Source of the DNA: Acetobacteraceae bacterium
GTDB taxonomy: Bacteria > Pseudomonadota > Alphaproteobacteria > Acetobacterales > Acetobacteraceae
Assembly: GCA_032249615.1 (NCBI GenBank)
Contig: JAVVHH010000001.1
Span: 1,122 to 65,121, forward strand
DNA: 64,000 bases
Reading direction: 5' to 3'
In this document: one piece after another, positions 6,020 to 34,659 of the stretch
Layout of the letters: every line of letters begins with the position of its first letter
Numbering within the stretch: position 1 is the first letter of the stretch
Position numbers and translations under genes: made by a program
The notes under the pieces: generated by a model
Seen by the model: only the letters and a program-made list of their open reading frames with translations
What the model was told of the DNA's origin: nothing
The model's database searches: none

Positions 6020-6023
6020 CGGC

Positions 6024-9144: not shown

Positions 9145-12100
9145 CACTCGAGCCGCGGGCATGAGAAGCTCTGGAGCAGGCCGGGGCTGAACGGGTTGTT
9201 GACCGACCCGGCGCGGATTTGGAACGTCACCTGCCGGTCGGCGAGATTGTAGCCGAGCTGATACAGCTCCGCGCCGTTCTGCTGCTGCAACTTGCCCTTG
9301 CCGACCATGCGGAACAGCGCCCACGGCCCCGTCGTCTGCAGCCCGGTCGCGCCGGTGGAGAGCGGCGGGTCGAACGTCAGCCGCACGGTGCCCATGCCCT
9401 GCGGACCCGGCCAGGTCACCTGGGTCGCCCGCTCCGGGCCGTGCACGTCGCTGATCGCGATGCCGTTCAGGTCCAGCGTGACTTGCCGCGAGGTAGAGTC
9501 GGAGCTGACGGGCGTGATCTCGAACTTCACCGAAGGCGTGGCGCCGCCGGACGCAAAGAACAGGTCGCGGATCATGGCGGCCCGCTGGAATTGGTCCAGG
9601 TCGGCTTGCGAGATGGGCGGCGCCACGCCAGCCACGGTTTGCAGCTTCCAACCGCCCGCCGCCTGATCGACGAACGCGCGGAGCTGCTGGTTGTAATACG
9701 CGTCCAGCAGCCCGCCCGGCGCGAACAGCTTGCCGAAATCGTCGAGCGGGATGTCGAGCGCGGAATCCGCCTTGAACGGGTAGCGGCCCTCCACCGCTTG
9801 GCGGCACAGGGAGCCGGGGCCGCCAGGTCCGTTGAACGCGGTGGCGGCCTGCTGCTTGGCGCCGGTGCCGCGCAGGCGGTCGGCGGTGGAGGCGAGCGTT
9901 TGCAGCCAGCCGGAGACGGGCGGCGGTTGCCGGAGCGCCTCGGCGCGGAGAAGCTGCGCCGGGTCGGCGCCCGTCGCCGCGACCGCGGGCGCGGCAGCAC
10001 CGGCCGGCGCCGCGGCTAGGGTCGCCAGCTGCTGCTGGAGGTCGTTCAGGAGCTTGAGGGTGATGTCGATGGGCGCACCGGGGCCCTTGCCGACATAGGC
10101 GCGCAAAGCCCGGAAACGGTCGTCGATCGCCTGACCCGGTGGCACCGCCGGCGGCGCGTTTTGGCCGAACAGCGCCGCAGGGCGGGTTGCGGCCGCAGCG
10201 GCGCCGGGAGCCGCTGCCCCGGCCGCGCCTGCAGCGGCCGGAGCGCCCGGCGCCGCGACGGGAGCGGTCAGCGTGAGCTGGTTGGCGATGGAGGTCAGCA
10301 GGTCTTTCAGCGGCGATTGCGGCGAGGAGAGCACGTAGAGGTCCTGGACTGCCGTCTGCAGGTCGCGGAGCGGCCGGATGGCGATGTCGGACAGCATCGC
10401 GTCCCAGCGCTTGGCGTAGTCGTTGGTGTAAAGCGCCACGACGTCGGTCTCGAGGGTCTTCAGCGCCGGGTCGTCGGCCGGATCGACCGCGGCGCCCGTG
10501 CCCAGGACCCAGCTTTCCGAGACCACCTCGCGCGTCGCCGGGGCCAGGGACGGCAGCAGGATCTTGTGGAAGCCGTCGACGGTGTAGAAGCCCGGCACGC
10601 CCTCGGTCAGCGGCTTGCCGGAGGGGCGGACGAACACCGCCGCGCCGGCCCCGCCCAGCGCATCGGCCGGCGTCCAGGGCGGGACCTGCTGGCCGGCGCC
10701 GGGGCGGATTCGGGAGTAGACGCGCTCGGCGAGGCTCACCCGGCTGAACGTGCGCCGGGCTGTCTCGACGAGTTGTCCGTCCAATTCCACGGCGGGCAGC
10801 GGGCCGGCTAGCAGAGCGGTCAGGTGCTCGTCGAGCGTCTTCCGCAAGGGCTCGCGGGTCAGGCCACCATAGGTGCTGGCCCAATCGGCGGCCATCCAGT
10901 CGCGCACCAGGCTGCGGTCGAGCGGGCCTTGGCTGCCTAGCATGAGGTAGATGCGAGTGGCTTCGTAGAGGAACTCGGGCCGGTTCATGGCGCCGCGCAT
11001 CTCCGCCTCGAGCTGCCAGAGCAGCCGGGGCAGCATCACCCAGTCGAGCGCGTGCCGGTAGGTGATCTGTGACGTGGCCGCGAGCTGGGCCGTTTGCGAC
11101 AGGCCCGACCAGCCGGACCGGCCGGCGGCGGCGCCGAAGGGCAAATTGCGCGCTTCGTCGAGCAACGGCAGCACGCGGGGCAGATCGCCGTCGGCCACGG
11201 GATCGAGCGGCAAGCTCGCCGCGATCTGCTGGTAGCGGGCCAGGGAAGCGCTGAGACGGTCGGTGTCGGCTTGGGCGGAGCGGTTCGCGGCCAGGATGAG
11301 GCCCATGGCCCCGAGCGTCACCAGCAGCACCGCCGCGAACGCGCCCGCCCGCATCAGCGAGCGGCGGCGCGCCAGGGCAGGCGGCTCGGAGACGAGCATC
11401 GACTCGCGGAACACGACCTCGCGTAGGAGCCGGTTGACGAAGTAACTGCGGCCTTGCGCCGGGGCGAGGCTGGCCAACCGTTGCGACGGCATGCCGAAGG
11501 CGCGCGCCATGCTGCCGGTCAGCCGGTCGATCGGTGTGCCGTATTGCGTGCCGGACAGGAGATAGAAGCCGCGCAGCAACGGCGCCGGGTCCAAGCGCGT
11601 GCCGCCGAAAGCCGCCGAGAGGAAAGCCTCGAGCGGTTCGGCCAGGCTCGCGACCTGGGCGGGGAAGCCGGCGATCAGCTGCCGCCGGTCCGGGCTCCGC
11701 TCGGCCTGCAGACGGTCGATCACCCGCTCTTCGACCCGCTCCAGCAGACGGGCATGCGCGGCGCGGAACTCGGCGGCCGGGCCCGCGGTATCGCCGCGGC
11801 CCAAGGGGAAGCTTTCGCCCCAGACCTGCTTGCGCTTCTCCGCATCCAGGTCGGCGAAGAACTCGGTGAAACCGGCGATCAGGTCCGCCTTGGTGAACAG
11901 CGCGTAGACCGGCAGCTGCACGCCGAGCTGCGTGTTCAGCTCCTTGATCCGCGCGCGGATGGCTACCGCGTGCGCCTCAGCTGCGGCCCGGTCGGCGACG
12001 ATTTCCGGCACGCTGATCGCTACCAGCACGCCGTTCAGCGGCTGGCGCGAGCGGGTTCGTTTCAGGAGTGCCAGGAAGCCCTGCCAGCCCGCGCGGTCCA

Positions 12101-12653
12101 CCGAGGCATCGCTATCCTGCGTGGTGTAGCGGCCGGCCGTGTCGATCAGAACCGCCTCGTCAGCAAACCACCAATCGCAGAGCCGGGTTCCGCCGACGCC
12201 GGCGACCGCCGCAGGCTTGCCGCCGGGTTCCGTCAGGAAGGTGAGCCCGCTGTTGACGAGCGCCGTGGTCTTGCCCGCGCCGGGCGGGCCGATGATTACA
12301 TACCACGGCTGCTCGTACAAGTAGCCGCGGGTTCCGTGAGCCCGCTTGAGCATCGCGGTGGCGGCCGCGAGCTTATCGTTCAGCGCGGCCACTTCCTCGG
12401 CAGAGGCGTCCGGCCCGGCCGGCGCCGCTACCCCACCCTTGAGCGCCGCCTCGGCGCGTCGGTGGCGGCGGTCGGCCAGCCAATTCGCGACCAACCAGAC
12501 CACGACCAGCAGGACCACGATGCCCAGCCGGATCGGCCACCCCTCCAGAAACGTCAGGAGAGGGCCGAGAAACCACACCAGCAGCGCCAAAAGCAGCACG
12601 CCGAGACCGGTCAGCGTCCAGCGCGAGAGAAGGACCCTTCGAAAGCCAGACAT
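9144..12653 (-). CDS. tssM: T6SS membrane-complex protein TssM (IcmF), full length
   Basis: 1169 aa with an N-terminal TM hairpin, Walker A (IIGPPGAGKTTAL) and Walker B-like VLIDTAGR. A third TM segment, a long periplasmic region and a C-terminal IcmF_C-like domain follow (...GRYPFKADSALDIPLDDFGKLFAPGG...). Confidence 0.95.
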   Translation of the reverse strand: MSGFRRVLLSRWTLTGLGVLLLALLVWFLGPLLTFLEGWPIRLGIVVLLVVVWLVANWLADRRHRRAEAALKGGVAAPAGPDASAEEVAALNDKLAAATAMLKRAHGTRGYLYEQPWYVIIGPPGAGKTTALVNSGLTFLTEPGGKPAAVAGVGGTRLCDWWFADEAVLIDTAGRYTTQDSDASVDRAGWQGFLALLKRTRSRQPLNGVLVAISVPEIVADRAAAEAHAVAIRARIKELNTQLGVQLPVYALFTKADLIAGFTEFFADLDAEKRKQVWGESFPLGRGDTAGPAAEFRAAHARLLERVEERVIDRLQAERSPDRRQLIAGFPAQVASLAEPLEAFLSAAFGGTRLDPAPLLRGFYLLSGTQYGTPIDRLTGSMARAFGMPSQRLASLAPAQGRSYFVNRLLREVVFRESMLVSEPPALARRRSLMRAGAFAAVLLVTLGAMGLILAANRSAQADTDRLSASLARYQQIAASLPLDPVADGDLPRVLPLLDEARNLPFGAAAGRSGWSGLSQTAQLAATSQITYRHALDWVMLPRLLWQLEAEMRGAMNRPEFLYEATRIYLMLGSQGPLDRSLVRDWMAADWASTYGGLTREPLRKTLDEHLTALLAGPLPAVELDGQLVETARRTFSRVSLAERVYSRIRPGAGQQVPPWTPADALGGAGAAVFVRPSGKPLTEGVPGFYTVDGFHKILLPSLAPATREVVSESWVLGTGAAVDPADDPALKTLETDVVALYTNDYAKRWDAMLSDIAIRPLRDLQTAVQDLYVLSSPQSPLKDLLTSIANQLTLTAPVAAPGAPAAAGAAGAAAPGAAAAATRPAALFGQNAPPAVPPGQAIDDRFRALRAYVGKGPGAPIDITLKLLNDLQQQLATLAAAPAGAAAPAVAATGADPAQLLRAEALRQPPPVSGWLQTLASTADRLRGTGAKQQAATAFNGPGGPGSLCRQAVEGRYPFKADSALDIPLDDFGKLFAPGGLLDAYYNQQLRAFVDQAAGGWKLQTVAGVAPPISQADLDQFQRAAMIRDLFFASGGATPSVKFEITPVSSDSTSRQVTLDLNGIAISDVHGPERATQVTWPGPQGMGTVRLTFDPPLSTGATGLQTTGPWALFRMVGKGKLQQQNGAELYQLGYNLADRQVTFQIRAGSVNNPFSPGLLQSFSCPRLE

Positions 12654-12662
12654 GGCGGCCTG

Positions 12663-14036
12663 CTACGATTGCCGGTGGAGGATGAGTTCGATCCGGCGGT
12701 TCTGCTCGCGCCCCTGCGCCGTCGCGTTGGAGGCTATCGGATCGGCGTCGGCCCGGCCTTCGGCCCGCAGCCGCTCCGTACCGCCCATGACACGGGCCAA
12801 CTCCGCCTCCGCCGCGGCGGCGCGTGCCGCCGAAAGTTTGAAGTTGGACGGGAACTTGACGGTTCGGATCGGCTGGTTGTCGGTATAGCCGAGCACATCC
12901 ACCTGACCCTTCTCGGCCGCCAGCGCCTTGCCGATCCGATCGAACAGCGACAGGAAGTTCTCGTTCAGCGTGGCGCTGCCGGATGCGAACAGGCCGCTGT
13001 TGTGGATGCGGACGATCGGCGTCGCGTCCGTGCCCAGGACCTCGACCAATTTCTGGTCGATCTCCGGCTTGAGGAACGTGCGGAGCCGATCCACGGCCGT
13101 GGGTTCGCTGGGGGGAGGCTGACGGGGTGGCGTGACGGCGACCGCCCGGCTGATGGCCGGCATGTGGCCGGGCGGCAGCGCCATCGCGCGGGCGAACAGG
13201 TCGTCCGACGCTTCAGCCAGGGTGCGGCTGGACCAGACGAACAGGGCCGCCGTGACAGCCAGCCCCGCAACCGCGGCGACCCACACCGGCAGCCGTGCGC
13301 GGGACGGTCGATAGGGGGCATTCTGCCCTTCCCAGCGCGGCGACAGAGCAGGCTCCGGCGCCCGCCGCTGCCGTGCGATGACGGCGTAGGTTTCCTCCCG
13401 CAGCCGATCGATTTCCGCCACGCCCCGCTGGGACAGGCGATGGCGGCCCATGAAGCCCAGCGACAGGCAGAGATACATCAGCTCCAGCACGGGGAGCATG
13501 GTGCCGGGGTTCTGGCGCATCTGGCCCAGCACATCGAAAAAACGGTCGCCGCTGCGGACTTCCTGATGGAAGGTCGACACCATGGAGCGAGAGGCCCACT
13601 CGCCGGTGCTGCCCCACGGCGTATTCAGCACCACGTCGTCGAGGCTGGCGCAGAGGGCGTAGTGAGCGGGGCGGAGCTGCTCCATCGGCACGCCGCCGTC
13701 GCGCGCGACCTGCTCGAACCGGCGCATCTCGGCGACGGCCCGCTCGCGCAGGCTGCCGCTGTCGGGCGCGGTGGCGGTGTTGCCGAGGCGGGCGAGGAGC
13801 TGGATGAGCGGACTTGCGGCGACGGCAAGCGGCGAGTTGCCGATCGCCAGGGCTGAGCGCGCGCCGGGCTCCTCGGGCGCGCTGGCGAAGGATGCGGCGG
13901 GCTGATCGACGAACGGGGCTGCTGCGGGCGCGGCGGCGGGCGGCCGTGCCGCCGGCCGCCGGCCGCCGGGAGCGGGGCGAATGATCGTCCGATCGCTGTC
14001 ATCCGGCTCGGCGAAAGGATTGTCGCTCGCCATCAT
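12663..14036 (-). CDS. tssL: TssL (DotU) long form with C-terminal OmpA/MotB peptidoglycan-binding domain
   Basis: 457 aa. The DotU region reads LELMYLCLSLGFMGRHRL. After a TM segment, the OmpA-like end reads VLGYTDNQPI...FPSNFKLSAARAAAA...NRRIELIL. Confidence 0.9.
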   Translation of the reverse strand: MMASDNPFAEPDDSDRTIIRPAPGGRRPAARPPAAAPAAAPFVDQPAASFASAPEEPGARSALAIGNSPLAVAASPLIQLLARLGNTATAPDSGSLRERAVAEMRRFEQVARDGGVPMEQLRPAHYALCASLDDVVLNTPWGSTGEWASRSMVSTFHQEVRSGDRFFDVLGQMRQNPGTMLPVLELMYLCLSLGFMGRHRLSQRGVAEIDRLREETYAVIARQRRAPEPALSPRWEGQNAPYRPSRARLPVWVAAVAGLAVTAALFVWSSRTLAEASDDLFARAMALPPGHMPAISRAVAVTPPRQPPPSEPTAVDRLRTFLKPEIDQKLVEVLGTDATPIVRIHNSGLFASGSATLNENFLSLFDRIGKALAAEKGQVDVLGYTDNQPIRTVKFPSNFKLSAARAAAAEAELARVMGGTERLRAEGRADADPIASNATAQGREQNRRIELILHRQS

Positions 14037-14097: not shown

Positions 14098-15426
14098 CTA
14101 CCCGCGAATTGCCCAAAGCTCCATGGTCAGATTGGGAAATTCGCCCGACACATGGATCGCGAAGCCGCCGGATGTCTGCATCTGCTGCCAGTGCGGCGAG
14201 TTGCGGTCGAGCTCGAAGTAGCTCGCGCCCGCGTGGAACGGGATTTGCCGCGGCGCTACGGGAAGTGGCACGATCGCGATCCCAGTCAGGGAGATGTTGA
14301 CCAGCTCGCGGATCTGCTCGACCGCGCCGATCTTGACCTGGCTCGGGAACAGCCGCCGCAGCGAATCGGTCGGCACGTCCGCCCGCACGCTCAACACGAA
14401 CGAGGCGGCTTGCAGAACGCCGCGGTCGGTGATCGCCCCCACGCGGACGCCGAACCGGCGCTCGACCAGCGGGATGCTGATGGCGTTCGTTTCGAGCACC
14501 GCCGACAGCGAGCGCCGCAGATCCGCAACGACCGGGGCGAAGGAGCGCTGCAGGTCCTCATGGCGATACGCGGGGTAAGGGGCGGGCCGCTTGCTCGCCT
14601 CGGTAAAGGTCGCGAACTCGCCGGCCATTTGCACCAGTGTCGCGTAGAGCGTTTCCGGGTGCGGCGTTCCGGCGTCGGCCCAGTGGCTCAGCAGCTTTTG
14701 CCAGCGGTTGAGCGATTGCAGCAGCAGGAAGTCGGCCACGTCGGCCACGCCGCGGGCGCCGGGCGCGGTGAGCCGCCCCGCCAGGGCCTCGCCGCGCTGG
14801 TTGATCATGCCGGCCAGCTCGGTCAGCAGCCCGGCGAGCACCGGGCTCGCCGCGCAGAGGAGGACGGAGGCGATCCAACGGTCGTCCAGCGTCACCCGTC
14901 GGTCCGACGACATCTCTACGATGCGGGCGAGCGGAATGCACAGCCAGCCCGCCCGCTCCTCGGTCTCGAGCAAGTAACGAAGCCGCAGCCGGCCGACGAC
15001 CAAATCGGCCGATTGAGGGGCCGCGGAATGCGTATCGAACGCTTCGAACTGGCTCACGCCGTAGCGGGCTTCCGGTCCGCCGGCCACCGCCAGCTCCGCC
15101 GACCCGGCTTGCTGGATCGGCACCCCCAAAAAGACCAGGGTGTTGCGCGCGTTCGGCGGCACGTCGAGCGGGAGCGGGTGATCCGCCTCTCCCGGCATGG
15201 AAAACGGAGTGCCGTCCTCGAACACGCCCGTCGCGGCCGATAGAGCGAAGCGGCCGGTGGCGAGCAGGTCACGGTCGATGGTGTAGTTGGACAAGCCCCA
15301 GCCGAACGGCTGCAGATGGGCGGTGCGGGCGCGCACCAGGTGCTCGAGACTGCGGTCCTGCTGCTGGAAGTGCTGCGCCCGGAGGAACATCCCCTCCTGC
15401 CAGGCGACCCGGTTGGTCCATGTCAT
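14098..15426 (-). CDS. tssK: T6SS baseplate protein TssK
   Basis: 442 aa. The N-terminus MTWTNRVAWQEGMFLRAQHFQQQDR is the canonical TssK start. The ATG overlaps the tssJ stop. Confidence 0.95.
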   Translation of the reverse strand: MTWTNRVAWQEGMFLRAQHFQQQDRSLEHLVRARTAHLQPFGWGLSNYTIDRDLLATGRFALSAATGVFEDGTPFSMPGEADHPLPLDVPPNARNTLVFLGVPIQQAGSAELAVAGGPEARYGVSQFEAFDTHSAAPQSADLVVGRLRLRYLLETEERAGWLCIPLARIVEMSSDRRVTLDDRWIASVLLCAASPVLAGLLTELAGMINQRGEALAGRLTAPGARGVADVADFLLLQSLNRWQKLLSHWADAGTPHPETLYATLVQMAGEFATFTEASKRPAPYPAYRHEDLQRSFAPVVADLRRSLSAVLETNAISIPLVERRFGVRVGAITDRGVLQAASFVLSVRADVPTDSLRRLFPSQVKIGAVEQIRELVNISLTGIAIVPLPVAPRQIPFHAGASYFELDRNSPHWQQMQTSGGFAIHVSGEFPNLTMELWAIRG

Positions 15427-15893
15427 GGTGCGGGGGCGGCGGGTTTCAGCGTGAGCACGATGCCGGCGGTTTTCGCTTCCAGCTTGGTCGGTCCGCTTGG
15501 TTTGACCGGCGCCTTCACGCGCCAGGTGGCGTGGTCGATGTCGCGGAATGCCGCGACCATGCCCAGCGCGGTGACGCCGGGCTTCAGCGGTTCATTGATC
15601 GAGACCGTGGCGCCCGGGGCGAGGAACACGGTTTCGCTGGCGGCCGCTTCGTCGCCCAGTGTCGCTTTCTCTTTGTCCAGCAACGCGAACACGTCGGCAT
15701 TGTCGAACTTGCCGGTGCCGGTGAGCTGGTAGACGTGGATCGCGACCGAGTTCGGTTTCCCGGCCGGATCGGGGTTCTGGTCGGCGCCGCCCGAGAGCGT
15801 CAGCGCGAGGACCGCGGGCGGCGGCGGCGGCGGACCGCCGCAGCCCGCCAGCGCGAACAGAAGAAGCAGGATGGGCCGCGCGATCGGGATCAT
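15423..15893 (-). CDS. tssJ: T6SS outer-membrane lipoprotein TssJ
   Basis: 156 aa with a lipobox (LLFALAGC). ...NSVAIHVYQLTGTGKFDNADVFALL is typical of TssJ/VasD. Confidence 0.9.
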   Translation of the reverse strand: MIPIARPILLLLFALAGCGGPPPPPPAVLALTLSGGADQNPDPAGKPNSVAIHVYQLTGTGKFDNADVFALLDKEKATLGDEAAASETVFLAPGATVSINEPLKPGVTALGMVAAFRDIDHATWRVKAPVKPSGPTKLEAKTAGIVLTLKPAAPAP

Positions 15894-20107: not shown

Positions 20108-20131
20108 CAATCACTCCTTCGCTTGCGCGCC

Positions 20132-20545: not shown

Positions 20546-21843
20546 TATTTGGGTCCTGGAAGGGAGGGCGGGGTCAGTGTGCCGGTCGGCCCGAGCGGTG
20601 GGATCTGCCGGCTGGTCCGGTACGCGAGTGCCTCGCCCCAAGTCTGGCTCGGTCCGAAACGGGCGCTGTCGAGCATAGCCTGCGGCAACGGATCTCCCGG
20701 TTCCCAAATCCGGACAGGGATCGATGGTATGCCCTGTTCGCGCGCCACCGCAACGCGGGTGTTGTCGAGCGAGACCACTCCGTCAGGGATGCGCACGGCG
20801 TCGATCGGTGGGCCGTTCCAACCGTTCTCCGCCATCGAACGCCGAAGCGCGTCGGCGCGATTGTTGCCGCCCGCGCTGTTCTGGCTGAAGCGGACTTCCT
20901 TTGGATCGAGGTTTTCGACCGTCTGGCCAGGGCCGACGGCGCGGGCACTCGGAGCGCCACCGCCAGCACGCGATCGGCCTCCTCCTCCTCCAGTGCGGCT
21001 GGTCGTCTCTCCGGTGGACCTTGCCGATCCGGTGCCGCCGTAATCCGACGTTCTGCGGGCCGCGCGGGTGATGAAGATGGTCAAGAACGCCAAGCCCAGC
21101 ACCACGAAGGCGTCCGCCAGGTCTTTTGCCGCCGTGTCGAGATCGGCGTCGTTCTTGGCCGTCGTGGCGTCCGCCGCGGCAGCGGCCATTTGGTAGAGCG
21201 CCCGCACGCCGGCCAGTCCGGCGATGCCGTAAGCGATCCCGGCCAGGACCACGTCCGCAGCCTCGCCGTAGCCGAAGAATTGCGCCGCAGCCAGGCCGGC
21301 GAACGCGGCGACGGTGAGGCCGATCGAAGTGGGCGAGATGAGCTGGAGGAACGCTTCCTTCAGCGGCCCGGACAGATATTTCGGCACCAGCCGCAGCGCC
21401 GCTTCGACGCGCTCGGCATGCGACATGTCGCGCACCGCCTTGGCTTTCGCCGCCGCGACGGTCGGCCCCGGGGCGGCCGGCCCCGGCGCGGCCGCTGGCT
21501 TGAACCCGCTCGCGACCCGGATGTCCGGATCGATCGCGTGTGGGAAATACGCGACCGTGAGACGATGCGACGCAACCGCTGCATTCAGCAGATCGATCAT
21601 GTGCCGTTCCGACAGGCGCTCCGGCGCACCGGGCAGGCCGAGGCGGCGCCAGGCGCTGCGCAGGGTGGCGACGGCGCGCGGGTCGCGAAGCAGGGGCCGT
21701 AGCCGCTCGCCGGCATGCGCGCGGAAGGCGGTCGCTGCCGCGACCGACCCGAACGCGGCCGGCGGCGCCAGCACCAGCGTGCCGCCCGGCAACGGGATCG
21801 CGCACTCCGCCCGGGGCCGCGCGATGGCGATGCTAGTGGTCAA
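20545..21843 (-). CDS. Candidate T6SS effector: unknown N-domain, three TM helices, G/S/R-rich linker, and a C-terminal ParB/Srx-like (predicted nuclease) toxin domain
   Basis: 432 aa. The TM helices are ISPTSIGLTVAAFAGLAAAQFF, VVLAGIAYGIAGLAGVRALY and AFVVLGLAFLTIFIT. The linker reads GGTGSARSTGETTSRTGGGGGRSRAGGGAPS. The C-terminal domain reads LDPKEVRFSQNS...LRRSMAENGWNGPPIDAVRIPDGVVSLDNTRVAVAREQGIPSIPVRI, which are ParB-like motifs. Confidence 0.6.
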   Translation of the reverse strand: MTTSIAIARPRAECAIPLPGGTLVLAPPAAFGSVAAATAFRAHAGERLRPLLRDPRAVATLRSAWRRLGLPGAPERLSERHMIDLLNAAVASHRLTVAYFPHAIDPDIRVASGFKPAAAPGPAAPGPTVAAAKAKAVRDMSHAERVEAALRLVPKYLSGPLKEAFLQLISPTSIGLTVAAFAGLAAAQFFGYGEAADVVLAGIAYGIAGLAGVRALYQMAAAAADATTAKNDADLDTAAKDLADAFVVLGLAFLTIFITRAARRTSDYGGTGSARSTGETTSRTGGGGGRSRAGGGAPSARAVGPGQTVENLDPKEVRFSQNSAGGNNRADALRRSMAENGWNGPPIDAVRIPDGVVSLDNTRVAVAREQGIPSIPVRIWEPGDPLPQAMLDSARFGPSQTWGEALAYRTSRQIPPLGPTGTLTPPSLPGPK

Positions 21844-22567
21844 ACTGATCCATCCCGTACGTATGTATGACGTATTTCAGCGTGGTGCCGTATTGCGGGT
21901 CGGTCGCGTAGACGCCCGTCAGCGCGTCGGCGAAGGCGTCGGGGTCGGCGCGCTTGGCCATGGCGGGCTTGTAGGGTGCGGCCGTCGCCAGCAGCTTGCC
22001 GTGCTGGTCGAAGGCCTCGTTCAGCGACGCGAACTGACGGAACTTGGCCGAAATGGTGATCGACTGCCCGGCGACGACCTCTCGGGTCGCGCTCTCGACG
22101 CTCGGCTGATCGCCGACGGCCTTGATCCCGAACGGGTTGTTGCTGCCCGGCGGCATGGCGGCGCCCCACGCACTCTCCACCGCCCATTGTGCGACGGTTA
22201 CGGAAGCGGGCACGCCCCACTGCTTGAGCGATAGCTTGGCCGCCTCCTCGACCTCCGGCGGCACCTTGCCGAAATGGCCCACGAACGGTTTCTTCGGCTG
22301 CTCGATCAGGGGACGGGAGGCGAGCGAATAGTAGGTGGGGCTACCGGGCTCCACCAGCCCGGTGGGCGGCACCATGTTCATGACGACGGCCTGATAGGCC
22401 TCGATCGCCAGCGTGGTGCCCACGTCTTCCACGCCCGTCGCCGGCACCGGCGAATGGGGCTGCGGCAAGCGCTCGTCCAGCAACGATTGGATGATGAACA
22501 CATCGAGCGGCGAGTTCGCTCCGCCGCGTCCCACCGATTGGGTGATCGGCGGTGCGACCCGGCCCAT
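21833..22567 (-). CDS. Peptidoglycan-binding-like domain plus GH73 N-acetylglucosaminidase (FlgJ-type) protein
   Basis: GH73 motifs are VAQWAVESAWG (catalytic Glu context), SNNPFGIKA and YATDPQYGTTL. The N-terminal PG_binding_1-like pattern is VFIIQSLLD...TTLAIEAYQ...TGLVEPGSPTY. The start is uncertain: ATG 22567, a GTG around 22606 after GGAG, or ATG 22717. The track start at 22741 is TTG. Confidence 0.8.
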   Translation of the reverse strand: MGRVAPPITQSVGRGGANSPLDVFIIQSLLDERLPQPHSPVPATGVEDVGTTLAIEAYQAVVMNMVPPTGLVEPGSPTYYSLASRPLIEQPKKPFVGHFGKVPPEVEEAAKLSLKQWGVPASVTVAQWAVESAWGAAMPPGSNNPFGIKAVGDQPSVESATREVVAGQSITISAKFRQFASLNEAFDQHGKLLATAAPYKPAMAKRADPDAFADALTGVYATDPQYGTTLKYVIHTYGMDQFDH

Positions 22568-22740
22568 CACGTCGGTACTCAGAACGGTCGGGGACGGAAT
22601 CAAGGCCACAACGACAACTCCGGAACCGGGCCGTTCAGCGCACGCCCGCTTGCCAGGCGGTGCGTCAGGAACCCTTTCGCCTCCGTGTGAAAAGCGATAC
22701 CGCTGGTTAACGATCATCGCACGAAGGAGCGTGACCGACA

Positions 22741-25431
22741 ATGCGTGCCGGCAGAAACGCCCTCATGCTCAACCTTCTCATCAGCTTCGTCGGCGTTGCC
22801 CTCCTGGCGGTCTTGGTCTGGTTCCTCGGGCCGTTGGTGCCATGGCTGGATGGGGTCGTCGTGCGCGGGGCGATCTGCCTCGTTCTGCTCCTGGTCTGGG
22901 CCGGTTACGCGGTCTGGACGGTCGTGCGCTGGCGGAAGCAGGGCCGCGAGCTCGAGCGCGGCCTCGTCGCCGCGGCCGCCGCCGAAGAGGTCGGCGCCAT
23001 CCAGGAGCGGTTCGCCGCGGCGATCGCCACGCTGCGGCAAGCCGGCTCCCTCCATTCGCAGCCGTGGTATGTCATCATCGGCCCGCCCGGCGCGGGCAAG
23101 ACGACGGCGCTGCTCAACGCGGGCTTGAGTTTCCCGTTCGCCGGGAAGGCGGGCGGCGCCCACCTGGCCGGCGTCGGCGGGACCCGGGATTGCGACTGGT
23201 GGTTCACCGACGAGGCCGTGCTGATCGACACCGCCGGCCGCTACACGACCCAGGACAGCGACGGCGTCGCCGACAGCGCGGGGTGGGGCGCCTTTCTCGA
23301 CCTGCTGCGGCGCACCCGGCCGCGCCAGCCGCTGAACGGGATCATCGTCGCAATCCCGGCGGTCGAAATCGCCGGCGTTCCCCAAGCGCTGCGCAGCGCC
23401 CATGCCCGCGCGGTCCGCGAGCGCGTGGAGGAACTCAACGGCAAGCTCAAAACCGACCTGCCGGTCTATCTGCTATTTACCAAAGCCGACTTGCTCGCGG
23501 GCTTCACCGAGTTCTTCGACGATCTGGACGCGGAGAGGCGGGGCCAGGTCTGGGGCACCACCTTTCCGCTCAGCCGCCGGCCGCTGCCAGTGCCAGATAC
23601 CGGCAAGGCGCTGGAAGCCTTGGTCGCTCGGCTCGATGAGCGCGTGATCGACCGGCTGCAGGCCGAGCGCAGCCCAGAGCGCCGGCGGCTGATCGCCGGA
23701 TTTCCCACCCAGGTGGCAAGCTTGGTCCCGCTGCTCAGCAGCTTCGTGGAAGAGGCTTTCGGCGGCCACAAGCTGCGCCAGGCGCCGCTCCTGCGCGGCA
23801 TCTACCTGACCTCAGGCACCCAATCCGGCACGCCGGTCGATCGGCTGACCGCGGTGCTGGCGCGCTCCTTCGCGCTCGCGCCCGCCCGCCTGGCCAGCCT
23901 GCGCCCGGAGAAGGGGCGGAGCTACTTCCTGCATCGCCTGATGAGCGACGTGCTGCCGGGCGAGGCCATGTTGGTCTCCTCCCGCCCGGAAATCGTCCGC
24001 CGCCGCAGGCTACTGCGCGGCGCCGGCTACGCGGGCACCCTGCTGGCCACCGCAGCCGCCTGCGCCGCGATCTGGCATGTGCGCGCCGGCAATCTCCAGG
24101 CGCAAGCCGCCGTGGCGCAAGCGCTCTCCGCCCAGGCCGCCGAGGCAGCGCGCCTGCCGCTCGACCCGGTCGCCGACACCGACGCGTTGCGCCTGCTTCC
24201 GTTGCTGGATCAAGCGCAGGCGATGCCGTTACGGACGGCGGTGGAATCGCAGGGTAACCTGCTGGATCAGGACGCCACGCTGGGCGAGATCAGCCGCACC
24301 ACCTACCGCCTCGCCCTGCAACGCGACTTGCTGCCGCGATTGCTGCGGCGGCTCGAGGCGCAGCTCGCCGCGTCCTCCGACCGGCCGGAGGACGCCTACA
24401 ACGCGACCAGGGTTTATCTCATGCTGGGTGGCGCCGGGCCGCTCGATCCGGCGCTGGTGCGGAACTGGTTGCAGCAGGACTGGAACGAGCGCTGGGGCGG
24501 GGCGGCGCAGCAGCGGCAGCGCGATCAACTCGCCCAGCACCTCGACGCGCTCCTCGCGGCGCCGCTGCCTGCCGTCGAGTTGGACGGCGCGCTGGTGGAC
24601 CGCGCCCGTGCCGTGTTCAATCGCGTGTCGCCGGCCGCCCGCGTCTACAGCCGCATCCGCTCCTCCGCCGCCGGGCAAGCAGTTCCGCCCTGGCGCCCGC
24701 GCAGCGCGATGGGGCCGCTCGGCAGCGCCCTGTTCACGGTGAAATCCGGCCGCTCGCTCGACGACGGAGTGCCCGGCCTGTTCACGCCCGCCGGCTACTA
24801 CGACGCCTTCCTGCCCGCGATCGCGCCCACGATCCGCGCCGTCGCCGCCGAGAGTTGGGTGACCGGCAACCCGGTCAAGGCAGACGACGACTCCGCCCGC
24901 CTGGCCGCGATCGAGCAGGAGGTCGACGGGCTCTATCGGGCGGACTTCATCCGCACTTGGGACGGCTTCCTCGACGACCTGCAGTTCACGCCGTTCCGCA
25001 GCGTCGCCCAGGCCGCGCAGGACCTGTACGTGCTGACGTCGCCGCAATCGCCGATCAGGCAGATTCTGGGAAGCATCGCGCTTCAGGTGAGCCTGCCTCC
25101 GCCGCAGGGCGTGGCGGCCGCGCCCAAGCTGCCGGGTCAGCCGTCGCGTGCGTCCGGCCCCGCCGCCGCGATTGCCGCGCATTACCGGCCCCTGATCGAT
25201 CTGGTGGGGCAAGGCCCGGGCGCGCCGCTCGATCAAGCGCTCCGGTCGCTGACCGACCTCCAGCAGTGGTTGGCCAAGCTCGCGGCCGCAGCCATCAACG
25301 TCCCGGCGCCTTCGCCCGGCACCACCGACCCGGCCGCCGCCCTCAGTACAGAAGCGCAACGCTGGCCCGAACCGTTGCGTCGCTGGTTCATGACAATGGC
25401 CGACTCAGCGGCAGCGCTCAGGCCCAAGTAG
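22741..25431 (+). CDS. TssM (IcmF) paralogue lacking the C-terminal IcmF_C/TssJ-binding domain
   Basis: 896 aa, collinear by eye with residues 1 to about 895 of the tssM product at 9144-12653. Shared blocks include VLVWFLGPL, PWYVIIGPPGAGKTTAL, AVLIDTAGRYTTQDSD, VIDRLQAERSP.RR.LIAGFP and DLYVL.SPQSP. It ends at ...RRWFMTMADSAAALRPK, where the full-length protein continues for about 270 aa. An AAGGAG RBS lies 11 nt before the ATG. Confidence 0.9.
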   Translation: MRAGRNALMLNLLISFVGVALLAVLVWFLGPLVPWLDGVVVRGAICLVLLLVWAGYAVWTVVRWRKQGRELERGLVAAAAAEEVGAIQERFAAAIATLRQAGSLHSQPWYVIIGPPGAGKTTALLNAGLSFPFAGKAGGAHLAGVGGTRDCDWWFTDEAVLIDTAGRYTTQDSDGVADSAGWGAFLDLLRRTRPRQPLNGIIVAIPAVEIAGVPQALRSAHARAVRERVEELNGKLKTDLPVYLLFTKADLLAGFTEFFDDLDAERRGQVWGTTFPLSRRPLPVPDTGKALEALVARLDERVIDRLQAERSPERRRLIAGFPTQVASLVPLLSSFVEEAFGGHKLRQAPLLRGIYLTSGTQSGTPVDRLTAVLARSFALAPARLASLRPEKGRSYFLHRLMSDVLPGEAMLVSSRPEIVRRRRLLRGAGYAGTLLATAAACAAIWHVRAGNLQAQAAVAQALSAQAAEAARLPLDPVADTDALRLLPLLDQAQAMPLRTAVESQGNLLDQDATLGEISRTTYRLALQRDLLPRLLRRLEAQLAASSDRPEDAYNATRVYLMLGGAGPLDPALVRNWLQQDWNERWGGAAQQRQRDQLAQHLDALLAAPLPAVELDGALVDRARAVFNRVSPAARVYSRIRSSAAGQAVPPWRPRSAMGPLGSALFTVKSGRSLDDGVPGLFTPAGYYDAFLPAIAPTIRAVAAESWVTGNPVKADDDSARLAAIEQEVDGLYRADFIRTWDGFLDDLQFTPFRSVAQAAQDLYVLTSPQSPIRQILGSIALQVSLPPPQGVAAAPKLPGQPSRASGPAAAIAAHYRPLIDLVGQGPGAPLDQALRSLTDLQQWLAKLAAAAINVPAPSPGTTDPAAALSTEAQRWPEPLRRWFMTMADSAAALRPK

Positions 25432-25477: not shown

Positions 25478-25505
25478 TTGACCTCTTGGGGCCGGCAACT
25501 ATAGT
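25478..25505 (+). promoter_or_regulatory. Candidate sigma70-type promoter of the tssB operon (TTGACC-16 nt-TATAGT)
   Basis: -35 at 25478-25483 and -10 at 25500-25505, 30 nt upstream of the tssB ATG at 25535. Confidence 0.45.
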
Positions 25506-25534: not shown

Positions 25535-26041
25535 ATGAGCGCAAGCATTCACGACAAGCTGAATCGCGTCCGCAAGCCGCGAGTTCACATCACTTATGAA
25601 GTCGAAACGGGCGATGCGCAGATCAAGCGGGAGCTTCCGTTCGTCATGGGCGTGATGGGCGATTTCTCGGGTGATCCGACGACGCCGCTGCGCCCGCTCG
25701 CCGACCGTAAGTTCATCCAGATCGACCGCGACAATTTCGACGACGTCATGTCGCGGGTCGGGCCCGGTCTCAAATTGAAGGTCGACAACACGCTGGCCGG
25801 CGACGGCAGCCAAATGGCGGTCGACCTCAAGTTCAACAGCATCGAGGATTTCGAGCCTGGCCGGGTCGTGCAGCAAGTGCCAGCGCTGAAGGCTTTGATG
25901 GACACGCGCAACAAGCTGCGTGACCTCATGAGCAAGGTCGACCGTTCCGAGGAGCTCGAAGGACTGCTGGAACAAGTTCTCCAGAACGAGAACGAGCTGA
26001 AGTCGCTATCCGGCCAACTCGGCCTCGGCAAGGAAGGATAA
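25535..26041 (+). CDS. tssB: T6SS contractile sheath small subunit TssB (VipA/ImpB)
   Basis: 168 aa; ...[31 protein letters not shown] is the canonical TssB sequence. Confidence 0.95.
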
Positions 26042-26045
26042 GCCC

Positions 26046-27536: not shown

Positions 27537-27552
27537 TGCTGCTTCGTCCCGC

Positions 27553-29067: not shown

Positions 29068-29093
29068 TCCACGCCAGATTTCAAGGAACACCC

Positions 29094-30427: not shown

Positions 30428-30451
30428 CCGCGCCGGTTCGGGGGACACGCC

Positions 30452-33338: not shown

Positions 33339-33960
33339 TCAAGCGGCCTTTGGCGCCCGGTTCCGCTGCTCGCGAAGGAGCGCGTTAGCGAGGATGGCGA
33401 GCTTTTGCATGGCGGCGATGATCGCGACTTTGGGCGGCTTTCCGGCGGCGAGCAGCGCCTGATACTTGGCCTTCATGTCGGCGTTGAAGCGGATCGCCAC
33501 CAGCGCCGGCATGTAGAGCGCCTGGCGTAGGTGAGCGCGTCCGCCGCGGATGAAGCGTTTGCCGCTGTGCTGTCCTGAGTCGCGAGCGATCGGCGCCAGG
33601 CCGGCGAGGCTGGCGATGCATTTGTTGTCGATCGCGCCCAGCTCGGGCATCTCGATCAGCATCGTCAGCGCGGTCGCCTCGCCGATGCCCGGATGCTGAC
33701 GAGGATATCAAGCCGCGCCTTCAACTCGGCATCGGCCCGGCACAGGGCACGCAGTTCGGCGTCGATTGCAGCGATCTGGCGCTCGATCTGGCGCAGCCGC
33801 TGGTCGGCCTTTTGCAGCGCATCGAGCGCGCCTAAGCGGGCGAGCATGGCGGCGTCGACGGCGTCGGTCTTAGCGCGCTGTCCAATAGCTTCGGCAAAGC
33901 GCCGTGCTTGCAGCGGATTGACCTTGACCATGGGCACGCCGTCCTCGCCGAGCTGGCGCT
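33339..33960 (-). pseudogene. IS110-family transposase remnant (N-terminally truncated, internally shortened, frameshifted)
   Basis: ORF 33339..33662 encodes a Transposase_20-type C-terminus (LAGLAPIARDSGQHSGKRFIRGGRAHLRQALYMPALVAIRFN). ORF 33665..34036 contains VKVNPLQARRFAEAIGQRAKTDAVDAAMLARLG. Adding one base in the C/G run near 33688-33692 restores SIPGIGEATALTMLIEMPELG across the two fragments. The DEDD N-domain is largely missing. Confidence 0.8.
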
Positions 33961-34176: not shown

Positions 34177-34659
34177 CTACGCAGCCACCGCAGTCGCAAG
34201 ATCGTAGCTGATGTTTGCCGGGCCTGCGCCGCTGCCGTCCGGCTTCATCTGGGTGCCCTTGTAAGTGATCTTGGTGAAGTTCAAGGAGATGCTCTCCTGC
34301 GGACGATCACCGCCGCTGCTCACGCTGTAGCCGCTGATCATCACGTTTTCCAGCTCGATGGTCAGATAGACCTGCATCTGGTCTTTGTTGGTACGACAGA
34401 AATCGAGCTGAACTTTGACGCCATCGCCTTGATAGGCTTCGGTCAACAGACCAACCGACGAGATGTCCTGTGGTTTGGTGACGACGATTTCGCTGATGCT
34501 GGGGGCGCTCGATTCGCGGTCTGCGCTGCCGCCGGTCGGGCTCGAGATTCCGCGCCCCACGCCCCACTGGAACGAATTGACTTCGATCCACTCCTTGTGG
34601 CCGGTCTCCGTCACGTCGCCCTTTAGTGCCCCTTCATTATAGTTCATGTAAATCGGCAT
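34177..34659 (-). CDS. hcp: T6SS inner-tube protein Hcp (TssD)
   Basis: 160 aa; MPIYMNYNEGALKGDVTETGHKEWIEVNSFQWGVGRGI... An AAGGAG RBS precedes the ATG. Confidence 0.95.
   Translation of the reverse strand: MPIYMNYNEGALKGDVTETGHKEWIEVNSFQWGVGRGISSPTGGSADRESSAPSISEIVVTKPQDISSVGLLTEAYQGDGVKVQLDFCRTNKDQMQVYLTIELENVMISGYSVSSGGDRPQESISLNFTKITYKGTQMKPDGSGAGPANISYDLATAVAA

What the first reader, a model, noticed from the sequence alone, without database searches (positions are those of the whole stretch)
22741..25431. Intact-looking TssM paralogue that stops exactly before the IcmF_C/TssJ-binding domain, heading the tssB operon
Seen: the 896-aa product aligns collinearly by eye with residues 1 to about 895 of the full-length TssM at 9144-12653. 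The shared features are the TM hairpin, the Walker A and B motifs, the third TM segment and the periplasmic helical region. It ends at ...MADSAAALRPK, where the full-length protein continues with about 270 aa. Only about 100 bp carrying a promoter-like element separate it from tssB, so no decayed C-terminal remnant follows. The long open frame, the AAGGAG RBS and the conserved motifs argue against a pseudogene. Established: the TssM C-terminal domain contacts TssJ to build the trans-envelope complex. In the Rhizobium imp prototype, impA (tssA) sits upstream of impB, whereas here tssA is relocated next to clpV. Inference: a TssJ-blind TssM could co-assemble with full-length TssM, or compete with it, to modulate membrane-complex assembly or NTPase-dependent signalling. 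I am not aware of a functional description of such a paralogue.
Basis: partly seen in the sequence, partly recalled or inferred. Interest (0 to 1): 0.75.

Follow-up and report, generated by a model that had tools for sequence, protein, structure and literature searches.

The report
Conserved short TssM lacking TssJ-binding domain
This is an intact, selection-maintained second copy of the type VI secretion membrane protein TssM that ends just before the part that binds the outer-membrane lipoprotein TssJ; related bacteria keep the same short copy beside a cell-wall hydrolase gene, and it resembles the short TssM length variant that Citrobacter needs for secretion.

Summary
ORF 22741-25431(+) encodes an 896-aa TssM. 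It has the TM hairpin, Walker A/B, a third TM helix and the periplasmic helical region, but no IcmF_helical or IcmF_C domain. It is 50% identical to residues 1-928 of the full-length TssM at 9144-12653(-). No C-terminal remnant exists anywhere in the window.

It is not a pseudogene or an assembly artefact. Thirteen orthologue clusters (863-928 aa, 55-68% identity) form a clade with 100% bootstrap support and end at the same point. dN/dS is 0.13 in the least saturated pair. Each domain is as conserved as in full-length TssMs.

The end maps to E. coli (EAEC) TssM residue ~868, where the crystallised TssJ-binding fragment begins. At least two further lineages lost the same domain at the same boundary.

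"Heading the tssB operon" is specific to this window. The conserved neighbour is a divergent FlgJ-like GH73 glucosaminidase with no signal peptide.

Citrobacter rodentium makes TssM[1-807] plus the full-length protein by transcriptional slippage, and needs both.

Most likely this is a separately encoded short TssM variant that works with full-length TssM and TssL. That mechanism is inferred, not shown. I rate it a new variant of a known kind.

The parts
22741..25431 (+). Short tssM paralogue (896 aa): TM hairpin, Walker A GPPGAGKTTAL, LIDTAGRYTTQDSD, third TM helix around residues 428-447, periplasmic helical region; no IcmF_helical or IcmF_C domain
22671..22701 (+). Conserved upstream motif ACCCTTTCGC-N13-GCGATACC, about 40 nt before the ATG. 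It is present upstream of 5 independent lineage-1 orthologue loci, with diverged copies in two more. It is unique in the window. Probable promoter or regulatory site of the short tssM.
22724..22729 (+). AAGGAG Shine-Dalgarno-like element, 11 nt before the ATG at 22741
21833..22567 (-). Divergently transcribed GH73 (FlgJ-like) N-acetylglucosaminidase, 244 aa from the ATG (the conserved PSPTVLSTD N-terminus suggests a GTG start near 22618). No signal peptide. Conserved neighbour of every short tssM seen.
9144..12653 (-). Full-length tssM (1169 aa) with IcmF_helical and IcmF_C domains; co-resident canonical copy
12663..14036 (-). tssL (DotU plus OmpA-like peptidoglycan-binding domain); the only tssL in the cluster
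15423..15893 (-). tssJ lipoprotein, partner of the C-terminal domain that the short copy lacks
25478..25505 (+). Sigma-70-like promoter match TTGACC-16-TATAGT (10 of 12) between the short tssM stop and tssB
25535..26041 (+). tssB, first gene of the tssB-tssC-tssC2-tagJ-tssE-tssF-tssG block. Its position after the short tssM is specific to this window.
33339..33707 (-). IS110-family transposase fragment at the tssG/hcp junction; marks the local rearrangement
34177..34659 (-). hcp (160 aa). In relatives hcp lies just downstream of and convergent with the short tssM, directly or after one small ORF.

Best explanation
The gene encodes a functional accessory TssM that cannot bind TssJ.

Shown:
- It is an intact inner-membrane NTPase-type TssM ending at the domain boundary before the TssJ-binding fragment.
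- It belongs to an old, monophyletic clade under purifying selection.
- It has its own conserved upstream element.
- It coexists in one T6SS cluster with a full-length TssM, a single TssL and TssJ.

Inferred:
- It inserts in the inner membrane through its three TM helices.
- It keeps the cytoplasmic NTP-binding domain and the proximal periplasmic helical 'foot/pillar' region that TssM uses to contact TssL, TssK and other TssM copies.
- It joins or assists the base of the TssJLM membrane complex without reaching the outer membrane.
- It is therefore a separately encoded counterpart of the short TssM length variant. C. rodentium makes that variant by transcriptional slippage and needs it, in a defined ratio, together with full-length TssM.

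Having two genes would let the cell set the short:long ratio by promoter strength.
For: Conserved clade: top homologues P0002-P0013 and P0020 are all 863-928 aa without PF06744. Full-length TssMs begin at 54% identity or less.

Common end point: clade members whose terminus aligns cleanly end at long-copy residues 930-933, after the W-x-P-L-R-R-W-L-x-x-I-A-D-x-x-x-x-L-R motif; P0011, P0013 and P0020 carry a 5-15-residue tail after the same motif.

Monophyly: 100/100 NJ bootstraps.

Selection:
- dN/dS is 0.13 at dS 0.53 for L001-L005, against tssA 0.16 and tssF 0.10.
- For the window-L002 pair it is 0.39 for the short copy and 0.33 for the long copy.
- Per-domain identity within the short clade equals that within long TssMs: NTPase 0.83 vs 0.89, periplasmic regions 0.61-0.68 vs 0.61-0.69.

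Structure:
- AF2 gives mean pLDDT 79.8, with confident terminal helices.
- A profile alignment to the EAEC TssM sequence of PDB entries 6IXH/6HS7 puts the end at about V867-L868. The crystallised TssJ-binding fragment starts at 869 (PMC6517824).

Co-residence: a second TssM gene lies in the same cluster in the window, L002, L003, L007 and L008; it is full-length in the window, L002 and L003 and cut by the locus end in L007 and L008.

Recurrence: lineage 2 (P0140, P0285-P0287) and P0288 lost the same domain at the same boundary. Joint monophyly with lineage 1 appears in 0/60 bootstraps.

Precedent: both TssM1[1-807] and full-length TssM1, and their ratio, are required in C. rodentium. Short ~85-kDa TssM forms are also seen in A. 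tumefaciens and EAEC (PMC4256274).
Against: - There are no expression, localisation or interaction data.
- All lineage-1 members are from metagenomes or MAGs.
- The C. rodentium short form ends about 60 residues earlier, and its role is itself unknown.
- The solved 15:10:10 TssJ:TssL:TssM complex has no obvious slot for a TssM without the tip domain.
- In lineages 2 and 3 the short TssM follows its own tssL, and a co-resident full-length TssM could not be verified. A two-variant model may therefore not be general.
- dS is near saturation for most pairs.
Confidence: 0.55

Rival explanations
1. The short TssM and the adjacent signal-peptide-less GH73 glucosaminidase form a cell-wall-remodelling or anchoring sub-module. 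In some lineages the module also includes an extra TssL. The periplasmic helical region of the short TssM would recruit or activate the hydrolase to open peptidoglycan for membrane-complex insertion. This is analogous to TssM-MltE in EAEC and to TagX in Acinetobacter.
For: - The glucosaminidase abuts the short tssM in all 7 lineage-1 loci and in lineages 2 and 3, in three different orientations.
- It is one of the most conserved genes of the cluster: 70-84% identity and dN/dS 0.09-0.23. It stays 75% identical where core proteins are 36-55% identical (L017).
- It has a FlgJ-like catalytic domain.
- The variable effector slot lies elsewhere.
- MltE and TagX are documented precedents for peptidoglycan hydrolases serving the membrane complex (PMC13584744).
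Against: - The same glucosaminidase also sits next to full-length tssL-tssM or fha-tssJKLM operons in at least 13 loci. The linkage is therefore to membrane-complex genes in general, not to the short form.
- It has no signal peptide or TM segment, so how it would reach the periplasm is unexplained.
- It could instead be a conserved secreted effector.
Confidence: 0.2
2. The short TssM is a negative regulator or decoy. It titrates TssL, TssK or full-length TssM into complexes that cannot reach TssJ. This would limit the number or timing of T6SS assemblies.
For: - It retains all cytoplasmic and TM interaction regions but lacks the outer-membrane-connecting domain.
- It has its own conserved upstream element, which would allow independent regulation.
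- In C. rodentium an altered short:long ratio abolishes function.
Against: - In C. rodentium the short form is required, not merely inhibitory.
- The periplasmic region is as constrained as in structural TssMs. That would be unnecessary for a simple cytoplasmic decoy.
- Convergent retention in three lineages suggests a positive role.
Confidence: 0.15
3. It is a decaying remnant of a duplicated or second T6SS cluster (a pseudogene), or the truncation is an assembly or sequencing artefact.
For: - Some relatives carry two tssL-tssM sets side by side (L049, L070), so a duplication origin is plausible.
- An IS110 fragment shows that the cluster has been rearranged.
Against: - Intact ORFs with the same end point occur in 13 clusters from independent assemblies, including contigs of 4.1 and 5.4 Mb.
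- dN/dS is well below 1, and per-domain conservation equals that of full-length TssM.
- NTPase motifs are invariant.
- No C-terminal remnant or frameshifted continuation exists.
Confidence: 0.03

Closest known systems
C. rodentium TssM1[1-807] / TssM1-FL and Y. pseudotuberculosis TssM3 length variants (Gueguen et al. 2014, PMC4256274)
   Same: One T6SS has a TssM lacking the C-terminal TssJ-binding domain alongside a full-length TssM. The short form keeps the three TM helices, the cytoplasmic domain and most of the periplasmic helical region. In C. rodentium both forms and their ratio are required.
   Different: There, both forms come from one gene by transcriptional slippage on a poly-A tract, and the C-terminal domain is encoded downstream in another frame. 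Here they are two diverged paralogues (50% identity) with separate promoters, no slippery tract and no downstream remnant. The truncation point here (EAEC ~868) is about 60 residues later than residue 807.
TagP (e.g. [quoted passage not shown] 2010)
   Same: It is an accessory TssM-derived protein encoded in a T6SS cluster in addition to the canonical TssM.
   Different: The protein here has no PF00691 or any other added domain. It is a pure truncation that keeps the full IcmF-related periplasmic region.
Canonical TssM/IcmF (TIGR03348; EAEC Sci-1 TssM, PDB 6HS7/6IXH/4Y7O)
   Same: Same family and collinear architecture over residues 1 to about 930, including NTPase motifs and topology.
   Different: It lacks the helical subdomain, the beta domain and the C-terminal helix (EAEC 869-1129). 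Those parts bind TssJ and form the tip of the membrane complex.
~85-kDa TssM products in A. tumefaciens and EAEC (noted in PMC4256274)
   Same: A short TssM species of similar size coexists with the full-length protein. The A. tumefaciens imp-type system may be related to the one here; that relatedness is from memory and was not tested.
   Different: Those arise post-translationally and their function is untested. Here the short form is encoded by its own gene.
Peptidoglycan hydrolases serving the T6SS membrane complex: MltE (EAEC) and TagX (Acinetobacter, Burkholderia) (PMC13584744)
   Same: The neighbouring GH73 enzyme is tightly linked to tssL/tssM genes, as expected for a dedicated wall-remodelling factor.
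   Different: It is a different enzyme class (a GH73 FlgJ-like glucosaminidase, not a lytic transglycosylase or an L,D-endopeptidase). It has no signal peptide or TM anchor. Its role is untested.

Membership tests
TssM / IcmF family (TIGR03348, type VI secretion membrane subunit) | Whole-protein score above the curated cut-off of the equivalog model | tested here: met
   805.8 bits against a cut-off of 388.15, but only profile positions 2-929 of 1168 are covered
TssM / IcmF family (TIGR03348, type VI secretion membrane subunit) | N-terminal TM hairpin plus a third TM helix flanking a cytoplasmic domain | tested here: met
   Hydrophobic windows at residues ~4-40 and ~31-63. AF2 helices 2-32, 39-80 and 416-471. 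Collinear with the long copy.
TssM / IcmF family (TIGR03348, type VI secretion membrane subunit) | Walker A/B NTPase motifs and the IcmF-related_N domain (PF14331) | tested here: met
   GPPGAGKTTAL and LIDTAGRYTTQDSD are invariant in 13 short-clade sequences. PF14331 E=2.7e-85. The cytoplasmic domain gives weak GTPase-like fold hits (G-alpha, EF-Tu; E 1.5e-3 and weaker, TM 0.09-0.14 on the query, rmsd 12-19 A).
TssM / IcmF family (TIGR03348, type VI secretion membrane subunit) | Periplasmic IcmF-related helical region (PF06761) | tested here: met
   PF06761 E=5.6e-81 at residues 486-782. Foldseek hit to TssM in 6IXH.
TssM / IcmF family (TIGR03348, type VI secretion membrane subunit) | C-terminal IcmF_helical (PF21070) plus IcmF_C (PF06744) TssJ-binding module | tested here: not met
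   Absent from the protein and from all six frames of the window apart from the long gene. The end aligns to EAEC residue ~868, just before the crystallised fragment 869-1107.
Two-length-variant TssM by transcriptional slippage (C. rodentium type) | Poly-A slippery tract before the stop, and the C-terminal domain encoded downstream in another frame | tested here: not met
   The 3' end reads ...GCGCTCAGGCCCAAGTAG, with no homopolymer run. There is no downstream C-terminal coding sequence.
Two-length-variant TssM by transcriptional slippage (C. rodentium type) | A short and a full-length TssM both produced for the same T6SS | tested here: inconclusive
   Both are encoded in one cluster here and in L002 and L003; L007 and L008 show a second tssM cut by the locus end. 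Production of the proteins was not tested.
Two-length-variant TssM by transcriptional slippage (C. rodentium type) | Both forms required for Hcp secretion and killing | not testable with these tools
   Needs genetics in a carrier organism
TagP (TssM derivative with a peptidoglycan-binding domain) | C-terminal OmpA-like domain PF00691 | tested here: not met
   No PF00691 hit in the short TssM. It is present only in TssL.
GH73 / FlgJ-type glucosaminidase (neighbouring gene 21833-22567) | PF01832 domain with the catalytic Glu motif (..AxxESxWG..) and the YATDxxY motif | tested here: met
   PF01832 E=2.7e-25. AQWAVESAWG and YATDP.YG are invariant in 7 orthologues; assigning them as the GH73 catalytic motifs is from memory. 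FlgJ structures match at E 1e-13 to 1e-17, with one weaker FlgJ entry at 2.4e-4; the best hit, E 6.6e-19, is a 'Peptidoglycan hydrolase' entry (7QFU).

The most novel reading that the evidence does not exclude
Short TssM proteins, a signal-peptide-less GH73 glucosaminidase with a conserved ~100-aa N-terminal domain of unidentified type and, in some lineages, an extra TssL together form a previously undescribed T6SS accessory module. The module has arisen convergently at least three times by loss of the TssJ-binding domain at one precise boundary. The short TssM would recruit, activate or even help deliver the hydrolase, to breach or re-anchor the cell wall at the assembly site. That would also give the unexplained 'short TssM' requirement of C. 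rodentium a mechanistic meaning.
Probability: 0.2. Interest if true: 0.8.

Novelty: new variant of a known kind. Interest (0 to 1): 0.62.

Why it matters
Since 2014 it has been known that one T6SS needs both a truncated and a full-length TssM, but not why. Published membrane-complex structures contain only full-length TssM.

The finding here is that natural lineages encode the short form as a separate gene under purifying selection. At least three lineages reached the same truncation point independently. This argues that a TssJ-independent TssM has a general, selected role and is not a Citrobacter oddity.

Separate genes also make the two forms individually deletable and taggable, so the question becomes directly testable.

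The tight linkage of a FlgJ-like hydrolase to tssL/tssM points to a candidate wall-remodelling accessory factor. That factor is absent from a 2026 catalogue of T6SS accessory genes.

Tried and rejected
It gave no taxonomic census of the short clade, though it did reveal the wider glucosaminidase linkage.
- The 50%-identity representative library merges the short clade into full-length representatives. It was useful only for finding P0140.
- phmmer of the long TssM against PDB found nothing. A profile search was needed.
- P0014 (950 aa) first looked like a short form but is a contig-end partial of a full-length TssM.
- L007/P0007 comes from a 3x-coverage assembly with many split genes and was excluded from end-point and tree analyses.
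- A sister relationship between the short clade and glucosaminidase-side full-length TssMs appeared in one NJ tree but has only 45% bootstrap support, so the origin is unresolved.
- dN/dS between the two window paralogues was not attempted, because 50% amino-acid identity means saturated dS.
- Rejected ideas: a split gene with a separately encoded IcmF_C (none in the window); TagP membership (no OmpA domain); a sigma-54 reading of the conserved upstream motif (GG/GC spacing does not fit, by eye only).
- Literature searches for Acetobacteraceae T6SS tssM, and for glucosaminidase with TssM, found nothing relevant.
Full report
**Observation**

The window is 68.8% G+C. ORF 22741-25431(+) is the only long frame there with coding-type codon-position G+C: 0.73/0.53/0.88 for positions 1/2/3. 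Its 896-aa product carries PF14331 (residues 177-432) and PF06761 (486-782) but neither PF21070 nor PF06744. The 1169-aa TssM at 9144-12653(-) has all four.

NCBIfam TIGR03348 scores 806 bits but covers only profile positions 2-929 of 1168. BLASTP aligns short residues 27-894 collinearly with long residues 27-928 at 50% identity. tblastn with the last 244 residues of the long protein finds nothing else in the window. There is therefore no decayed or separately encoded C-terminal domain.

AAGGAG lies 11 nt before the ATG. The MRA... start is shared by orthologues. NCBI's 888-aa call for the identical MAG protein (P0001, 'Acetobacteraceae bacterium') starts 8 codons later.

The 103-bp spacer to tssB holds a TTGACC-16-TATAGT match and no terminator-like site.

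**The cluster**

Searches give the following gene order.

| Coordinates | Strand | Gene or product |
|---|---|---|
| 7904-8707 | - | PP2C phosphatase |
| 9144-12653 | - | tssM (full length) |
| 12663-14036 | - | tssL (DotU plus OmpA-like domain) |
| 14098-15426 | - | tssK |
| 15423-15893 | - | tssJ |
| 15890-17275 | - | fha |
| 17282-17572 | - | PAAR |
| 17572-18162 | - | DUF6931 |
| 18167-20110 | - | vgrG |
| 20545-21843 | - | 432-aa protein with hydrophobic, TM-like segments (by eye) and no Pfam hit |
| 21833-22741 (ORF; ATG at 22567) | - | GH73 glucosaminidase |
| 22741-25431 | + | short tssM |
| 25535-26041 | + | tssB |
| 26046-27536 | + | tssC |
| 27553-29067 | + | second tssC paralogue |
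| ~29064-29924 | + | ImpE/TagJ |
| 29921-30427 | + | tssE |
| 30452-32293 | + | tssF |
| ~32290-33324 | + | tssG |
| 33339-33707 | - | IS110 fragment |
| 34177-34659 | - | hcp |
| 34700-37330 | - | clpV |
| 37441-38565 | + | tssA |

This is one complete T6SS with a single tssL, tssJ and tssK but two tssM genes.

**Not a pseudogene or artefact**

The closest proteins in a 5.8-billion-sequence search are all short. P0002-P0013 and P0020 are 863-928 aa, 55-68% identical, and lack PF06744. Full-length TssMs begin at about 54% identity or less.

- **Common end point.** Clade members whose terminus aligns cleanly end at long-copy residues 930-933, directly after the conserved W-x-P-L-R-R-W-L-x-x-I-A-D-x-x-x-x-L-R motif; P0011, P0013 and P0020 carry a 5-15-residue tail after the same motif.
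- **Monophyly.** On 876 shared columns and 120 taxa the short clade is monophyletic in 100/100 NJ bootstraps. It is as internally diverse (0.47 substitutions per site) as the sampled full-length TssMs.
- **Selection.** Nei-Gojobori dN/dS is 0.13 for the least saturated orthologue pair (L001-L005, dS 0.53). In the same pair tssA gives 0.16, tssF 0.10 and hcp 0.08. Between the window and L002 the short gene gives 0.39 and the co-resident long gene 0.33.
- **Domain-wise conservation.** Mean identity within the short clade matches that within full-length TssMs: NTPase core 0.83 vs 0.89, and the periplasmic segments 0.61-0.68 vs 0.61-0.69. Walker A (GPPGAGKTTAL) and LIDTAGRYTTQDSD are invariant.
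- **Independent assemblies.** Orthologues come from separate assemblies, including contigs of 4.1 and 5.4 Mb. That excludes an assembly error.

**Where it is cut**

An AF2 model (mean pLDDT 79.8; periplasmic part mostly above 85) ends in three confident helices. It matches TssM in the EAEC membrane-complex structure 6IXH.

A profile built from short plus long sequences aligns to EAEC TssM (6IXH/6HS7). This places the terminal '...ALR' at about V867-L868. The crystallised fragments 4Y7L/4Y7M start about three profile positions later. Rapisarda et al. state that residues 579-869 were missing from the crystal structure of the TssJ-binding fragment, and that the gate loop is 776-786 (PMC6517824).

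The short protein therefore keeps the foot, the pillar and the gate-loop region. It lacks exactly the module that binds TssJ and forms the tip.

**Genomic context in relatives**

In six independent loci the short tssM is divergently adjacent (80-160 bp) to the GH73 glucosaminidase gene: L001, L002, L003 (also recovered as L004 and L095), L005 (a shorter contig, L006, carries the same protein), L007 and L008. That gene closes the operon tssM(long)-tssL-K-J-fha-PAAR-DUF6931-vgrG-(variable genes).

The downstream neighbour varies. It is a convergent hcp, directly or after one small ORF, followed by clpV in five loci, and an MFS gene in L002. Only in the window is it tssB. There an IS110 fragment sits at the other end of the tssB-tssG block.

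'Heading the tssB operon' is therefore a local rearrangement, and tssB probably uses its own promoter.

A second tssM follows tssL wherever that position is visible. It is complete and full-length in the window, L002 (1143 aa) and L003 (1159 aa), and cut by the locus end in L007 and L008.

A 30-nt motif, CCCTTnCGC-N12-GCGwTACC, lies about 40 nt upstream of the start codon at 22671-22701. It is found upstream of 5 independent lineage-1 orthologue loci (window, L001, L002, L003, L005), with diverged copies in L007 and L008, although synonymous sites are near saturation. It is unique in the window. Across 1.87 Mb of fetched loci the loose pattern otherwise matches only twice (L049, L071), neither upstream of a short tssM. 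I read it as the gene's own promoter or regulatory site. This is inference.

**The glucosaminidase**

Seven orthologues show 81% mean column identity and no signal peptide or TM segment. The motifs AQWAVESAWG and YATDP.YG are invariant; reading them as the GH73 catalytic motifs is from memory. The N-terminal ~100 residues are strongly conserved and matched no Pfam or PDB family. The catalytic half matches FlgJ-type hydrolases at E about 1e-16 to 1e-19.

The same protein (64-75% identical) also lies beside full-length membrane-complex genes:

- divergent from tssM in L009;
- divergent from tssL-tssM in L013, L017, L041, L089 and L091;
- divergent from fha-tssJ-K-L-M in L012, L015 and L024;
- co-directional and upstream of tssL(-tssM) in L093, L096, L101, L102, L105, L108 and L111;
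- next to a second tssL-tssM set in L049 and L070.

In L017 it is 75% identical while the core T6SS proteins there are only 36-55% identical. Such conservation is unusual for an effector, no immunity gene accompanies it, and the linkage to tssL/tssM is constant. Together these suggest a dedicated wall-remodelling accessory factor. How a protein without a signal peptide would reach the periplasm is unexplained, and a conserved secreted effector is not excluded. The word 'glucosaminidase' does not occur in a 2026 review of T6SS accessory genes (PMC13584744).

**Recurrence**

The representative search turned up P0140 (934 aa). A follow-up search found P0285, P0286 and P0287 (933-938 aa, 64-87% identical to P0140), P0341 (878 aa) and P0288 (949 aa). 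All lack PF06744 and end within 8 residues of the same ALR motif.

Their contexts are:

- tssL - short tssM, convergent with the glucosaminidase, then a PDZ-kinase gene and vgrG (L115, on a 1.05-Mb contig; also the P0140 contig and L104);
- tssC...hcp...tssL - short tssM - glucosaminidase (L116).

No IcmF_C remnant is present in L115 or L116. In NJ bootstraps lineage 1 and lineage 2 are each recovered 60/60. Any joint clade of short forms is recovered 0/60, and the nearest neighbours of P0140 and P0288 are full-length TssMs.

The same domain has therefore probably been lost at the same boundary at least three times. Distance-based trees on long branches are not decisive, so likelihood-based topology tests are still needed.

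**What is known**

Gueguen et al. (PMC4256274) showed that C. rodentium tssM1 yields TssM1[1-807] and, by transcriptional slippage on a poly-A tract, full-length TssM1 (1129 aa). Each form alone is non-functional, and inverting their 3-4:1 ratio abolishes secretion. Y. pseudotuberculosis tssM3 also makes two forms. They also note ~85-kDa TssM species in A. tumefaciens and EAEC. The role of the short form is still unknown.

TagP is a described 'TssM derivative' with an added OmpA-like domain (PMC5363822). TssM NTP binding and hydrolysis drive Hcp recruitment to TssM-TssL in A. tumefaciens (PMC3346141). I found no description of a stand-alone, C-terminally truncated tssM paralogue. Absence from the searchable library is not proof.

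**Interpretation**

- **Shown:** an intact, conserved, purifying-selected TssM without the TssJ-binding module, with its own upstream element, co-resident with full-length TssM.
- **Inferred (about 0.55):** it is the genetically separate equivalent of the short TssM length variant. It would sit in the inner membrane and work with TssL and full-length TssM at the base of the membrane complex.
- **Rivals:** a hydrolase-recruiting wall-remodelling module with the GH73 enzyme (about 0.2); an assembly-limiting decoy (about 0.15); a remnant or artefact (about 0.03).
- **Novelty:** a new variant of a known kind.

**Limits**

All lineage-1 members are from metagenomes or MAGs. For lineages 2 and 3 a co-resident full-length TssM could not be checked. 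dS is saturated for most pairs. No experimental data exist.

Noticed in passing
window 21833-22567(-), possibly starting near 22618; also L001-L009, L012-L017, L024, L041, L049, L070, L089-L116: A FlgJ-like GH73 glucosaminidase without a signal peptide or TM segment is a highly conserved T6SS-cluster gene (64-84% identity; 75% where core proteins are 36-55%). It abuts tssL, tssM or fha-tssJKLM operons in every locus whose flanks could be read (about 35 of ~45), in varying orientation. The word does not occur in a 2026 review of T6SS accessory genes. It is a candidate new wall-remodelling accessory factor, or a conserved effector.
   Followed up: partly
L115:10001-12802, L116:4130-6979, L104:3062-3754(-), proteins P0140, P0285-P0288, P0341: Two further lineages of TssM lack the IcmF_C module and end within 8 residues of the same ALR motif. 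Each follows its own tssL and lies next to the same glucosaminidase. They do not group with the window's clade (0/60 bootstraps), which suggests convergent domain loss.
   Followed up: partly
window 22671-22701(+): A conserved motif, ACCCTTTCGC-N13-GCGATACC, lies about 40 nt upstream of the short tssM start. It is found upstream of 5 independent lineage-1 orthologue loci (diverged copies in two more), is unique in the window, and was not found next to full-length tssM genes.
   Followed up: partly
window 33339-33707(-) and 25535-33324(+): An IS110-family transposase fragment lies between tssG and hcp. The tssB-tssG block sits between the short tssM and hcp here, whereas in L001 and L005 it lies beyond tssA in the opposite orientation. 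This looks like an IS-associated rearrangement.
   Followed up: partly
window 26046-27536(+) and 27553-29067(+): Two tandem TssC (VipB) paralogues, also present in L001, L005 and L009. From memory this resembles TssC41/TssC40 of Agrobacterium imp-type clusters; that was not checked.
   Followed up: no
window 20545-21843(-): A 432-aa protein with hydrophobic segments and no Pfam match occupies the slot between vgrG and the glucosaminidase. That slot is variable in relatives (Ntox46 plus Tsi6 in L003, 458-aa plus 117-aa unknowns in L001/L005, a 322-aa unknown in L007, empty in L008), so it is probably an effector slot.
   Followed up: no
window 38573-41638(-); L008:17372-18415: A 1021-aa WD40 plus caspase-like (Peptidase_C14) protein lies next to tssA. 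In L008 a Peptidase_C14 plus peptidoglycan-binding protein occupies the equivalent position beside tssA.
   Followed up: no
L049:639-5624 and 8749-13216; L070:820-5779 and 8865-13264: Two Rhodospirillales/Alphaproteobacteria MAG loci carry two complete tssL-tssM pairs side by side, separated by PP2C and the glucosaminidase. This is a possible precursor state for the short-TssM arrangement.
   Followed up: partly
window 6024-7811(-) and 1601-6067(+): A ShlB/FhaC-type two-partner-secretion transporter lies beside the T6SS cluster. Three upstream ORFs of 194-691 aa have no Pfam match.
   Followed up: no
window 22741 vs 22765: The public annotation of the identical MAG protein (P0001) is 888 aa, starting 8 codons downstream. 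The upstream ATG with AAGGAG and the conserved MRA N-terminus in orthologues favour 22741.
   Followed up: yes
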